64,000 bases of DNA from Bdellovibrionota bacterium. Its GTDB lineage: Bacteria; Bdellovibrionota; Bdellovibrionia; Bdellovibrionales; JAEYZS01. The notes under the pieces were generated by a model. It was not told the DNA's origin. It did not search any database and was given only the letters and a program-made list of their open reading frames with translations. Each line of letters opens with the position of its first letter. Within the stretch, counting starts at the first letter, position 1. Shown one piece after another: positions 50,601-51,270 of the stretch. The stretch lies in assembly GCA_963169805.1 (NCBI GenBank), contig CAUJDY010000063.1, positions 5,479-69,478 on the forward strand, written 5' to 3'. The position numbers and the translations under genes are program-made.

Positions 50601-51270
50601 AACGGAAGTTGCACATCATCCTCCTGAAATGACAGATTTTTTTAAGATTGATTTTACAAGTGGGAAAAATATTACTGTAACAGGAGATCACTATATTTTC
50701 TCTCCTGACGACAACTTTTATATTCCAGTTGAAATGATTTACGAACGGTGGAAAAGGTCTGGTGATTTTTATTTGTTAAACATCGACGGCAAGCGTGAAA
50801 AGATTCAAATGATTTATTCTTTCATGAGCGCCCAGCCTAGCTATAACTTACATGTTAAAGGTATATCAAGTGATGCGAAAAATTATGGAACTCTGGGACG
50901 TGGCCATAACTATTTTGCAAATGGTATTTTAGCACACAATATGAAGTGGGTTTGCCAAGGCGGTGCATGCTCAGGAGAAGGTTGTCCTAACTGCATGAGC
51001 ATGCCCCCTATGAGGCTTATTCTCAGCTGCGACTCTTCAGAGTTAACATGGCTATCAGTTGTATTTTTAACACCAGTCGATCAACAACCCTACACCCCAC
51101 CTGTCAACTTATCTGGAGCTGCCTGCACAAGTAACCCAGTTTGCAACTCTTCATGTGCCTCTACAGATGGATCAACCGCCAACATGGGAAGCCAATACTG
51201 CGTAACCCCCACTGGCCCTGGTACTTGTATCGGCTACCTCATTGGCATCTGCTTCTGCCCAGCCATCTAA
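47638..51270 (+). CDS. 1210-aa Cys-rich exported/anchored protein with TSP1-like and Hint (bacterial intein-like) domains
   Basis: Long uninterrupted ORF. N-terminal hydrophobic segment 'GVGLIAAIIAAALVVSAALAVSYF'. Sequence rich in Cys, Thr, Asn and Gly. Domain calls are listed separately. The start is uncertain: TTG 47638, or TTG 47671 preceded by GGAG. Confidence 0.8.
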   Translation: MFLPRNQNGVGLIAAIIAAALVVSAALAVSYFIVNQNKSSVKLSNNTNCVTIASSISDYIRKDDNAVNITNFGPALGQTQFASNLDTTIDGYDRFSFQGNRIEASQPTSGNLNIAPASVLTSPARGSVAIPDGWSFSNYLNIRNSTNRLIALASNGNFCCEDLDLSDTGCGADLYVDGGTNNPPSLTLPAQNVRVKLAINIEENGSSLCSGGRLSRLPDLKDRITTKYVARVILNENQQTALACESEGSTQIPSDTIAPYTIVSLNYTGLCDATKTSSPSACSASNEIQLTASTVVDRNWNNGVNPSCQTCLRSTIGYYTCAGLNAAELNTATDDAFNTCTAGTNSPCLLSDPGSLFLCRVGEMNWFNANPNFWEPCHSARVRDFNGNIIGDPVEIEYLRVAAGQNTDTYSRARITLRNLPERAYQFDIRAVDTKASFAGPSFCSTSDCSSPAFVVNTTNPTLTQARSLGGNVDVVQNLFDNGGTSFSVPAAMAAFGASKFQCQGGVSQFETQIQYPSLPAGAYPLGLNGSCTSTLVLPNATSRLIGTFEAQDNLCRFSAGANPTDPSGNYVIRTTFTNECNRSTPNTNSESWCYDRATPFATSINTTNGSTPTFALQHTKPCALAKLCPRIDGASPSWSTANCPATLPGWSDSRDSGCLRSTSGQYCMLGFDPCGRSFEASTAYESHLLAGSATTNKCVRSPNNDEFDPSTVLISGNMCESGWCDNNFKCVTTNANIGRNCDNSGAPGTTCDHTSDCSGSPTTCNTTYNCELPTGQVQGPVSCTLGTPCTMTNNSCDIATNRCTLTNDDCTSTPCPTAGTCRVRGQGTCQEPTNRTCSCEPGEEVFCPVANTCLVNSLAANPAGRNSNCTPLPPLPPACEWVETSRTPCSGACGQAGTLTINRTCRVVGTGAACGTCTGSSTVNGVACTSAPCATGVPVTTRAHFCFVKDTEITLANGGIAPIQDIKVGDWVTTYDEIQKKNVISQVTEVAHHPPEMTDFFKIDFTSGKNITVTGDHYIFSPDDNFYIPVEMIYERWKRSGDFYLLNIDGKREKIQMIYSFMSAQPSYNLHVKGISSDAKNYGTLGRGHNYFANGILAHNMKWVCQGGACSGEGCPNCMSMPPMRLILSCDSSELTWLSVVFLTPVDQQPYTPPVNLSGAACTSNPVCNSSCASTDGSTANMGSQYCVTPTGPGTCIGYLIGICFCPAI
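50275..50439 (+). other. thrombospondin type-1-repeat-like segment within the 1210-aa protein
   Basis: 'CEWVETSRTPCSGACGQAGTLTINRTCRVV...ACGTCTGSSTVNGVACTSAPC' fits the TSR core W...CSxxCGxGxxxRxRxC...C...C, but has only one Trp. Confidence 0.45.
50476..50940 (+). other. Hint / bacterial intein-like (BIL) domain, 155 aa
   Basis: Block A 'CFVKDTEITLANGGIAPIQDIKVGDWV', block B 'ITVTGDHYIF', blocks F/G 'YNLHV...HNYFANGILAHN'. The residue after the terminal HN is Met (50941), not Cys/Ser/Thr. Confidence 0.8.

What the first reader, a model, noticed from the sequence alone, without database searches (positions are those of the whole stretch)
50941..51270. 109-aa, 12-cysteine C-terminal module downstream of the Hint domain is a candidate released peptide
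The tail 'MKWVCQGGACSGEGCPNC...YCVTPTGPGTCIGYLIGICFCPAI' has 12 Cys (counted), a Pro-rich middle and a hydrophobic Cys-studded end. I recognise no family. Its position immediately after a C-terminal-cleavage-competent HN makes it the part that Asn cyclisation would free. In polymorphic toxin systems that position holds the effector.
Basis: inference. Interest (0 to 1): 0.65.

Follow-up and report, generated by a model that had tools for sequence, protein, structure and literature searches.

The report
Orphan cysteine-rich tail after intein-like domain
A large exported bacterial surface protein ends in a self-cutting intein-like (BIL/Hint) domain followed by a unique 109-residue cysteine-rich tail that is probably cut off, but it resembles the protein's own cysteine-rich stalk more than a toxin, so this is an ordinary member of a known kind with an unexplained appendix.

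Summary
ORF 47638..51270 (+) encodes 1210 aa. A Hint domain (aa 947-1101, ending His-Asn) is followed by 109 aa (nt 50941-51267) with 12 Cys, 11 Pro and a hydrophobic end. An independent assembly has the identical sequence.

The Hint is a type-A bacterial intein-like (BIL) domain. All catalytic residues are present and the +1 residue is Met, so canonical splicing is excluded. Detachment of the tail by Asn cyclisation is plausible but untested.

The effector reading is not supported:
- The tail has no relative in 1.84 billion representative proteins and matches no Pfam or NCBIfam family.
- No same-strand gene follows it. Related Hint proteins with toxin-sized tails almost always have one.
- Its composition (11% Cys, acidic, few charges) matches the cysteine-rich stalk just before the Hint, not the Lys/Arg-rich toxin tails of relatives.
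- Its second half weakly resembles a stalk module of the only full-length homolog, which has neither Hint nor tail.
- The two closest Hint relatives stop 8 and 31 aa after His-Asn.

One point favours a swapped cassette: the tail's GC3 is unusually high.

The direct test, tails of orthologs, could not be done. Verdict: a new member of a known kind, of modest interest.

The parts
47638..51270 (+). Whole ORF, 1210 aa plus stop. It has 71 Cys and is exported and disulfide-rich. It is in the public protein collection as P0001 (NCBI, 70,107-nt contig).
47665..47739 (+). N-terminal hydrophobic segment, aa 10-34 (VGLIAAIIAAALVVSAALAVSYFIV), after a short polar leader. It is read as a signal anchor or pilin-like export segment. 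It is conserved in P0002 and L002.
   Evidence: Direct reading. No Pfam match.
47638..49839 (+). Conserved core of the N-extein, aa 1-734. It is 34% identical to P0002 and about 88% identical to the partial ortholog in L002.
49840..50475 (+). Cys/Thr/Gly/Pro-rich stalk, aa 735-946 (12.6% Cys over aa 740-946). It includes the motif CEWVETSRTPCSGACG, which is shared with P0002.
50476..50940 (+). Type-A BIL / Hint domain, aa 947-1101. Catalytic residues: C947 (nt 50476-78), T1015 and H1018 (nt 50680-91), H1090 (nt 50905-07), H1100-N1101 (nt 50935-40). It carries a 13-aa insertion, KGISSDAKNYGTL, shared only with L003-5 and L084.
50941..51267 (+). The finding: a 109-aa C-extein (tail), aa 1102-1210, with Met at +1. 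It has 12 Cys, 11 Pro and pI 4.1, with the hydrophobic end CIGYLIGICFCPAI. Its GC3 is 0.486. It is an orphan sequence.
45199..47583 (+). Upstream neighbour, 794 aa. It has Ig-like / OmpL47-type barrel domains and a C-terminal MIDAS-adhesin-like region. The adhesin-then-target gene order is kept in L002.
51275..52126 (.). Mobile unit directly downstream. Two 50-nt inverted repeats (51275-51324 and 52077-52126, 98% complementary) flank a REP-associated / IS200-like tyrosine transposase ORF (51330..52073, minus strand). It fills the gap to the convergent AcrB gene, so no immunity gene fits there.

Best explanation
The tail is the C-extein of a type-A bacterial intein-like (BIL) Hint domain placed near the C-terminus of an exported, disulfide-rich surface protein.

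Shown:
- The Hint has the fold and all catalytic residues of a BIL or mini-intein.
- The +1 residue is Met, so the canonical branched-intermediate splicing route is closed.

Inferred from published type-A BIL chemistry:
- After export and folding, Cys947 forms a thioester at the N-terminal junction.
- Asn1101 cyclises and cuts the tail off.
- The thioester is then hydrolysed or captured by an amine. A minority of molecules may re-join the two flanks.

Inferred from comparison: the tail itself is most likely a lineage-specific extra piece of the same Cys/Gly/Pro/Ser-rich stalk that precedes the Hint. I read it as a disposable or structural appendix, not a toxin effector. In this Hint clade the biologically important event is probably the reaction at the N-terminal junction, that is, release or transfer of the large N-terminal protein.
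For: 1. Hint identity.
- Pfam Hint scores 2e-10 and intein_Nterm scores 7e-6.
- The best solved relatives by sequence and by fold are BIL2 of Tetrahymena (6Y75/6TMM; 1.8e-7, Foldseek 3e-12) and the C. thermocellum BIL 2LWY.
- The AF2 model of the Hint part has pLDDT 70-88.

2. Catalytic residues. They are present and conserved across 117 relatives: C 99%, T952 100%, T1015 98%, H1018 100%, H1090 89%, H1100 98%, N1101 99%.

3. This is a BIL clade, not an intein clade. The +1 residue is Met here. Only 11 of 119 relatives have C, S or T at +1, and Lys is commonest at 51 of 119.

4. Published chemistry. Type-A BILs end in His-Asn and lack a +1 nucleophile. Cleavage products dominate, and ligation occurs by attack of the freed amino group (PMC4031507, read).

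5. The closest Hint relatives have almost no tail. L003-5 (39% identical, Cys-rich N-extein) stop 8 aa after HN. L084 (35% identical, giant adhesin-like protein) stops after 31 aa. Of 109 complete relatives, 51 have tails of 20 aa or fewer.

6. The tail resembles the stalk.
- Cys 11.0 vs 12.6%, Gly 10.1 vs 9.7%, Pro 10.1 vs 9.2%, with few charged residues in both. The Hint has 0.6% Cys.
- Tail residues 59-104 align to stalk module 719-782 of P0002 with score 75, against 49 +/- 7.7 for composition-preserving shuffles (P about 0.005).
- Cys counts are 58, 1 and 12 for the N-extein, Hint and tail. This fits separate disulfide sets with a free catalytic Cys.

7. No toxin signature.
- No Pfam, NCBIfam or PDB match for the tail.
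- No downstream candidate immunity ORF.
- No cassette copies in the window.
Against: - No cleavage has been observed. The activity is inferred from residues only.
- The tail's synonymous codon usage is atypical. Its GC3 of 0.486 falls in the top 0.4% of 109-codon windows of the window's genes, whereas the Hint has 0.29 and the stalk 0.34. This fits a separately acquired cassette better than a local stalk duplicate.
- The similarity to the P0002 stalk is weak. It is absent against the protein's own stalk (P = 0.14).
- The tail has no predicted structure: pLDDT about 26 in context and 50 alone. 'Stalk-like' therefore rests on composition.
- Only one full-length homolog and one truncated ortholog exist, so conservation of the tail is untested.
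Confidence: 0.45

Rival explanations
1. One reading: the tail is an effector (toxin or signalling peptide). The Hint acts as a releasing peptidase that frees it by Asn cyclisation, as in polymorphic toxin systems.
For: - The position directly after an intact HN is correct.
- HINT as a releasing peptidase just before the toxin domain is an established architecture (PMC3482391).
- Relatives of this Hint carry 60-135-aa tails that match known toxin families.
- The tail's size of 109 aa falls in that range.
- Its deviant GC3 suggests a swapped cassette.
- It is not conserved in P0002, L003 or L084.
Against: - No same-strand gene follows. The best ORF is 37 aa, whereas 26 of 30 related loci have an ORF of at least 60 aa at or near the stop. 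The gap to the convergent AcrB gene is filled by a transposase unit.
- There are no orphan cassettes.
- No toxin family matches, and no relative exists among 1.84 billion representative proteins.
- The composition is unlike that of all 30 mid-sized tails of relatives, most of which have 0 or 1 Cys (five at most) and which read as Lys/Arg-rich. It resembles the adjacent stalk instead.
- The toxin-bearing relatives are the more distant ones (26-30% identical; Paenibacillus, Kribbella, Clostridia).
Confidence: 0.15
2. The main outcome is ligation. The BIL excises itself and the freed amino group of Met1102 attacks the Cys947 thioester. The mature protein is then core + stalk + tail, with the hydrophobic C-terminus serving as a membrane- or surface-associating end.
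For: - Type-A BILs can splice by this route (PMC4031507).
- The flanks on both sides of the Hint have the same composition, as expected if they form one continuous stalk.
- The tail has a hydrophobic end.
Against: - Published work reports that cleavage dominates over splicing for type-A BILs.
- P0002 ends roughly where the Hint begins, so Hint plus tail looks like an addition to the C-terminus, not an insertion into a continuous region.
- The closest relatives have tails too short to be a functional half of a stalk.
- No known C-terminal sorting signal matches.
Confidence: 0.15
3. The tail is an evolutionarily young, functionless extension, for example a fused fragment from a recombination event near the adjacent mobile element. 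It is tolerated because the BIL removes it.
For: - It is an orphan sequence.
- Its codon usage is atypical.
- It has no confident structure.
- A transposase unit starts 5 nt after the stop.
- The closest relatives need no tail.
Against: - Twelve Cys against 3.3 expected from its own nucleotide composition (P about 1e-4), together with an even Cys number, argue for selected, disulfide-forming sequence.
- The inverted repeat of the mobile unit begins after the stop codon, so the tail is not part of that element.
Confidence: 0.15
4. The Hint is catalytically silent in vivo, for example because Cys947 is oxidised outside the cell. The tail then simply remains as the C-terminal end of the full-length protein.
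For: - The protein is exported into an oxidising compartment along with 70 other cysteines.
- The block F residue usually Asp in inteins is Asn here, in YNL.
Against: - The full catalytic set is retained and strongly conserved across relatives, including many other secreted Cys-rich proteins such as L136 and L003.
- Asn at that block F position is the clade norm, at 86%.
Confidence: 0.1

Closest known systems
Type-A bacterial intein-like (BIL) domains (Amitai et al. 2003; Dassa et al. 2004; solved examples C. thermocellum BIL 2LWY and Tetrahymena BUBL1 BIL2 6Y75/6TMM)
   Same: - Hint fold of about 155 aa with no endonuclease.
- Cys at position 1, a T-x-x-H block B, a C-terminal His-Asn and a non-nucleophilic +1 residue. 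Here it is Met, as in BIL2, whose solved construct continues with Met-Gln.
- It sits in a non-conserved secreted protein.
- BIL2 and 2LWY are the top sequence and structure matches.
   Different: - The 13-aa insertion KGISSDAKNYGTL in block F is shared only with L003-5 and L084.
- The flanks are extremely Cys-rich.
- Activity is untested.
- BIL2 conjugates a ubiquitin-like N-extein to Lys residues (PMC8616854). Nothing comparable is shown here.
HINT releasing peptidase of polymorphic toxin systems (Zhang et al. 2012, PMC3482391)
   Same: - A Hint lies just before a C-terminal module of about 100 aa on a long surface or stalk protein.
- More distant relatives of this Hint carry known toxin tails and have a downstream gene in the position of an immunity gene.
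   Different: - No immunity gene, no recognisable toxin fold and no cassettes are present.
- The tail's composition resembles the stalk.
- No RHS, FHA, LXG or other known trafficking or repeat domain was detected.
Canonical mini-inteins (e.g. Npu DnaE, Ssp DnaB)
   Same: The fold and the catalytic blocks A, B, F and G are shared.
   Different: - The +1 residue is Met, not Cys, Ser or Thr.
- The host is not a conserved housekeeping protein.
- The Hint-less homolog P0002 ends near the point where the Hint begins, rather than continuing across it.
Hedgehog / Hog C-terminal autoprocessing domains
   Same: A Hint at or near the C-terminus of a secreted protein, where the key reaction is at the N-terminal junction. 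That arrangement is the norm for the closest relatives, which stop 1-31 aa after the Hint.
   Different: - This domain keeps His-Asn, which Hedgehog lacks.
- There is no sterol-recognition region.
- The Hedgehog structure 1AT0 is a much weaker match (rank 27).

Membership tests
Type-A BIL domain | Hint/intein fold of mini-intein size | tested here: met
   Pfam Hint scores 2e-10. The AF2 Hint part has pLDDT 70-88. Foldseek top hits are BIL2 at 3e-12 and 2LWY at 2e-9.
Type-A BIL domain | N-terminal Cys/Ser nucleophile and block B Thr-x-x-His | tested here: met
   C947 and T1015-G-D-H1018 are present. They are conserved in 98-100% of 117 relatives.
Type-A BIL domain | C-terminal His-Asn (block G like inteins) | tested here: met
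   H1100-N1101 are present. They are conserved in 98-99% of relatives.
Type-A BIL domain | No nucleophilic residue at +1 of the C-flank | tested here: met
   The +1 residue is Met1102. Only 11 of 119 relatives have C, S or T at +1.
Type-A BIL domain | Located in a variable, non-conserved (often secreted) protein rather than at a conserved site of an essential protein | tested here: met
   The host protein has only one full-length homolog, P0002, which lacks the Hint. It has an N-terminal hydrophobic export segment.
Type-A BIL domain | Autocatalytic cleavage at both junctions, with or without ligation | not testable with these tools
   This needs expression of the Hint with its flanks plus C947A and N1101A mutants.
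Canonical intein | Cys/Ser/Thr at +1 of the C-extein | tested here: not met
   The +1 residue is Met.
Canonical intein | Insertion in a conserved site of a conserved host protein, with intein-less alleles that are colinear across the site | tested here: not met
   P0002 ends about where the Hint begins. Its last alignable block (CGWVEVDRT...) corresponds to aa 880-921 of the query.
Polymorphic toxin system | Releasing peptidase (HINT) immediately upstream of the C-terminal module | tested here: met
Polymorphic toxin system | C-terminal module belongs to a toxin family or is demonstrably toxic | tested here: not met
   No Pfam, NCBIfam or PDB match was found. No relative was found at all. Toxicity itself is not testable here.
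Polymorphic toxin system | Immunity gene directly downstream on the same strand | tested here: not met
   The best same-strand ORF is 37 aa and starts 122 nt downstream, inside the antisense of a transposase gene. In comparison, 26 of 30 related loci have an ORF of at least 60 aa.
Polymorphic toxin system | Different C-terminal modules on otherwise conserved orthologs, and/or orphan cassettes nearby | tested here: inconclusive
   There are no cassettes in the 64-kb window. The 88% ortholog (L002) is cut at aa 627. P0002 lacks both the Hint and the tail. The tail's GC3 is deviant.
Polymorphic toxin system | Known trafficking domain and repeat stalk (RHS, FHA, LXG, WXG etc.) | tested here: not met
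   The only Pfam or NCBIfam hits on the 1210-aa protein are Hint/intein models.
C-terminal sorting signals (PEP-CTERM, GlyGly-CTERM, MYXO-CTERM, LPXTG and the like) | Match to a curated sorting-signal model, with a TM helix followed by a basic cluster | tested here: not met
   NCBIfam gives no hit on the tail at E <= 1. The hydrophobic end is only about 14 residues and has no basic residues.

The most novel reading that the evidence does not exclude
The tail is a new kind of BIL-released, disulfide-knotted secreted peptide of about 11.2 kDa (six disulfides, acidic, hydrophobic C-terminus). A low-GC diderm bacterium, possibly predatory, would deploy it next to an adhesin. It would act outside the producer cell, so no cognate immunity gene would be needed. 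Its deviant codon usage would mark it as a swapped cassette.
Probability: 0.12. Interest if true: 0.6.

Novelty: new member of a known kind. Interest (0 to 1): 0.3.

Why it matters
If the conservative reading is right, this locus adds one more type-A BIL in a secreted, hypervariable protein. It shows that 'Hint followed by about 100 aa' is not enough to call a toxin. The checks that discriminate are a downstream gene in the immunity position, the tail's composition, and the tails of the nearest Hint relatives.

If the tail were an active released peptide, it would be a family of self-released, cysteine-rich bacterial peptides with no detectable relatives, and the prediction is directly testable by mass spectrometry.

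The wider survey also raises a separate question. Many relatives are terminal BILs that stop one or two residues after His-Asn, usually with Lys at +1. This suggests a role in releasing or covalently transferring the large N-terminal protein.

Tried and rejected
- Tail homolog searches all found nothing beyond the protein itself.
  - The word-indexed search of 5.8 billion proteins found nothing, not even self, which is a sensitivity caveat.
  - Full phmmer against 1.84 billion representatives found only self.
  - tblastn against the window and against about 160 Hint loci found nothing.
  - The scans of viral contigs and plasmids found nothing.
- Pfam and NCBIfam scans of the tail found nothing.
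- The PDB sequence search of Hint plus tail returned essentially only Hint/intein hits.
- Whole-protein relatives are few.
  - Only P0002 was found.
  - The genome and metagenome scans with the core alignment found none.
- I tried to recover ortholog C-termini through neighbouring genes.
  - The adhesin cluster led to L001 and L002, both of which end before the C-terminus.
  - The AcrB and OEP look-ups led only to the same strain (L164-L166).
  - The transposase was not in the collection.
- Structure prediction gave no usable tail model.
  - Tail pLDDT was about 26 in context and 50 alone.
  - I therefore made no fold search on the tail.
- Pilin-like or PilX_N identity of the N-terminus found no significant Pfam hit.
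- I considered independent translation of the tail from ATG 50941 and rejected it, because no Shine-Dalgarno-like sequence lies upstream.
- I considered a lipobox reading of 'LILSC' and a CaaX-like reading of the terminal 'CPAI', and dropped both as unsupported.
- The taxonomy of the source organism could not be established. NCBIfam hits of neighbours gave only a below-cutoff match to a Bdellovibrio-type MIDAS adhesin model.
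Full report
**1. Observation**

ORF 47638..51270 (+) encodes a 1210-aa protein. Residues 1102-1210 (nt 50941-51267) read MKWVCQGGACSGEGCPNC...GYLIGICFCPAI. This tail has 109 aa, 12 Cys and 11 Pro, with pI 4.1 and a reduced mass of 11,255 Da. Its hydrophobic end, CIGYLIGICFCPAI, has a mean hydropathy of 1.97 over the last 15 residues.

The tail follows ...NGILAHN, the end of a Hint domain. Pfam Hint scores 2e-10 and NCBIfam intein_Nterm scores 7e-6.

The open frame and the cysteine content are not chance. Shuffles of the same 327 nt give 3.3 +/- 1.7 Cys, with P(>=12) about 1e-4. Only 1% of those shuffles stay free of stops, and 0.07% of random sequences at the window's base composition do.

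An independent assembly (Logan ERR10643335, L164) carries the identical 2109 nt, tail included.

One qualification applies. The cysteine richness is not peculiar to the tail. The 207 residues before the Hint have 12.6% Cys, and the protein has 71 Cys in all.

**2. The Hint domain**

Residues 947-1101 carry the full catalytic set. In an alignment of 117 non-redundant relatives, the conservation is as follows:

| Residue | Conservation |
|---|---|
| Cys947 | 99% |
| Thr952 | 100% |
| Thr1015 | 98% |
| His1018 | 100% |
| His1090 | 89% |
| His1100 | 98% |
| Asn1101 | 99% |

The +1 residue is Met. The transesterification step of canonical splicing is therefore impossible.

The best solved relatives are the BIL2 domain of the Tetrahymena BUBL1 locus and the Clostridium thermocellum BIL. 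BIL2 (6Y75/6TMM) scores 1.8e-7 by sequence and 3e-12 by Foldseek. The C. thermocellum BIL (2LWY) comes next, ahead of the mini-inteins and well ahead of Hedgehog. The AF2 model is confident for the Hint part (pLDDT 70-88) and not for the tail (about 26).

This is a type-A BIL. Such domains end in His-Asn and lack a +1 nucleophile. They give mainly cleavage products, and can ligate their flanks when the amino group freed by Asn cyclisation attacks the N-terminal thioester (PMC4031507). BIL2 itself transfers its N-extein onto lysines (PMC8616854).

**3. The host protein and its neighbours**

The protein starts with a short polar leader and a 25-residue hydrophobic segment. It then has a core of about 730 aa and a Cys/Thr/Gly/Pro-rich stalk (aa 735-946).

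Only one full-length homolog exists among 5.8 billion protein clusters. This is P0002, at 902 aa and 34% identity over aa 1-734. It has no Hint and no tail. Its last alignable block (CGWVEVDRT...) corresponds to aa 880-921 of the query, so it ends about where the Hint begins. Relative to that homolog, Hint plus tail is a C-terminal addition, not an insertion into a continuous sequence.

An 88%-identical ortholog (L002) is cut by its contig end at aa 627. The direct polymorphism test could therefore not be done.

The upstream gene (794 aa) is adhesin-like. It has OmpL47-type barrels and a MIDAS-adhesin-like C-terminus, and the pair is syntenic in L002.

There is no same-strand gene downstream. 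Five nucleotides after the stop, a unit made of two 50-nt inverted repeats begins. The repeats flank a REP-associated / IS200-like transposase gene, and the unit abuts the convergent AcrB gene.

**4. What follows the Hint in relatives**

Scans with a Hint alignment returned about 160 loci. I analysed their reading frames.

The closest relatives share a 13-aa insertion with the query. They are L003-5 (39% identical, with a Cys-rich N-extein) and L084 (35% identical, a giant adhesin-like protein). They stop 8 and 31 aa after His-Asn.

Tail lengths among the 109 complete, non-redundant His-Asn enders were:

| Tail length | Number of loci |
|---|---|
| 20 aa or fewer (often just K or KK) | 51 |
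| 21-59 aa | 2 |
| 60-135 aa | 28 |
| 136-200 aa | 13 |
| more than 200 aa | 15 |

Twelve of the tails of 136-163 aa begin a second Hint domain in tandem.

The 30 non-tandem tails of 40-260 aa were examined further; all but two of them are 60-135 aa. Most have 0 or 1 Cys (five at most) and they read as Lys/Arg-rich. At least 8 of the 23 tails scanned match known toxin families: Cytotoxic, LHH, EndoU, Ntox33, Ntox37 and Tox-ART-HYD1. In 26 of the 30 loci, a same-strand ORF of at least 60 aa starts at or near the stop. The window has nothing longer than 37 aa.

Those are the more distant members (Paenibacillus, Kribbella, Clostridia). The present locus lacks the accompanying signatures.

**5. 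The tail itself**

The tail has no relative anywhere. Searches of 5.8 billion clusters, 1.84 billion representatives by full phmmer (only self), all fetched loci and the window, viral contigs and plasmids found nothing. It matches no Pfam, NCBIfam or PDB entry. It has no confident predicted structure.

Its amino-acid composition copies the stalk before the Hint. Cys is 11.0 vs 12.6%, Gly 10.1 vs 9.7% and Pro 10.1 vs 9.2%, and both have few charges. The Hint has 0.6% Cys.

Tail residues 59-104 align with stalk module 719-782 of P0002. The score is 75, against 49 +/- 7.7 for composition-preserving shuffles (P about 0.005). The match to the protein's own stalk is not significant (P = 0.14).

Cysteine counts are 58 in the N-extein, 1 in the Hint and 12 in the tail. 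This is compatible with separate disulfide sets and a free catalytic Cys.

One feature points the other way. The tail's GC3 is 0.486, in the top 0.4% of 109-codon windows of the window's genes. The Hint has 0.29 and the stalk 0.34. This suggests that the tail was added later or came from elsewhere.

**6. Interpretation**

Most likely (0.45), the tail is the lineage-specific C-extein of a type-A BIL. It is probably detached by Asn cyclisation, but it is a stalk-like or disposable appendix, not a toxin. In this clade the functionally important chemistry is probably at the N-terminal junction.

The rivals are:
- a released effector (0.15);
- ligation of the tail onto the stalk as the main outcome (0.15);
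- a young, functionless extension (0.15);
- a silent Hint, with the tail retained on the full-length protein (0.10).

None of the processing steps has been observed. All are inferred from conserved residues and published BIL chemistry.

**7. Novelty and score**

The Hint is a new member of a known kind. The tail is an orphan whose role is open. Interest is modest (0.3).

The most novel reading still allowed is a BIL-released, disulfide-knotted secreted peptide with no immunity partner. I give it a probability of about 0.12.

Noticed in passing
window 51275-52126: Two 50-nt inverted repeats (51275-51324 and 52077-52126, 98% complementary) flank a REP-associated / IS200-like tyrosine transposase ORF (51330..52073, minus strand). 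The left arm starts 5 nt after the target's stop. The right arm overlaps the last ~23 nt of the convergent AcrB ORF. There are no other copies in the window.
   Followed up: partly
window 45199-47583 (+) and 47606-47633: The upstream 794-aa gene has OmpL47-type barrel / Ig-like domains and a C-terminal region that matches a Bdellovibrio-type MIDAS adhesin model (8.7e-22, below the curated cut-off). A terminator-like hairpin and a promoter-like site lie between it and the target gene. The gene pair is syntenic in L002.
   Followed up: partly
window 50941-51267: The tail's GC3 is 0.486, against 0.29 for the Hint, 0.34 for the rest of the gene and a mean of 0.31 for the window's ORFs. That places it in the top 0.4% of 109-codon windows. 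Its synonymous-codon score is in the bottom 1%.
   Followed up: partly
loci L006-L163 (Hint relatives): In 119 non-redundant His-Asn-ending relatives, the +1 residue is Lys in 51 and Cys, Ser or Thr in only 11. Many proteins stop 1-2 residues after His-Asn (HN-K*, HN-KK*). A terminal BIL of this kind cannot be releasing a C-terminal module, which suggests release or transfer of the N-terminal protein.
   Followed up: partly
L086, L090-L094, L097, L107 and similar (marine metagenome contigs): A group of proteins of about 740 aa ends in two tandem Hint domains (...HN-[RK]CFIAGT...HN-K*). Their shared N-terminal region (MKGTxFSxDFVK...LLEINTDT) was not identified. No Pfam scan was run on them.
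   Followed up: no
window 50695-50733 region (aa 1074-1086) and L003-5, L084: A 13-residue insertion (KGISSDAKNYGTL) lies between the YNLHV strand and the GHNYF motif of the Hint. Only L003-5 and L084 share it, about 3% of relatives, so it marks a small subclade.
   Followed up: partly
window ~50275-50400 (aa 880-921) and P0002 aa ~838-890: The motif C-[EG]-W-V-E-x-x-R-T...C is conserved between the query stalk and P0002. By eye it recalls a thrombospondin type-1 repeat (W..W..CS..CG). No Pfam TSP_1 hit was reported.
   Followed up: no
L136 (SDBV01002676.1) and L003: Other Hint relatives also have strongly Cys-rich modules directly before a C-terminal Hint. L136 has repeated CxxDxDCC...C units, then GGG-CFVKDT...HN-GGGGK*. 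A Cys-rich stalk followed by a terminal BIL is therefore a recurring architecture.
   Followed up: partly
The word-indexed protein search with the tail alone did not return P0001, although P0001 is in that collection. The full phmmer search did return it. Negative results from the indexed search on short, low-complexity queries are therefore weak.
   Followed up: yes
window 47638-51267 (protein): Cysteine counts are 58 in the N-extein, 1 in the Hint (the catalytic Cys947) and 12 in the tail. Both flanks have even numbers.
   Followed up: no
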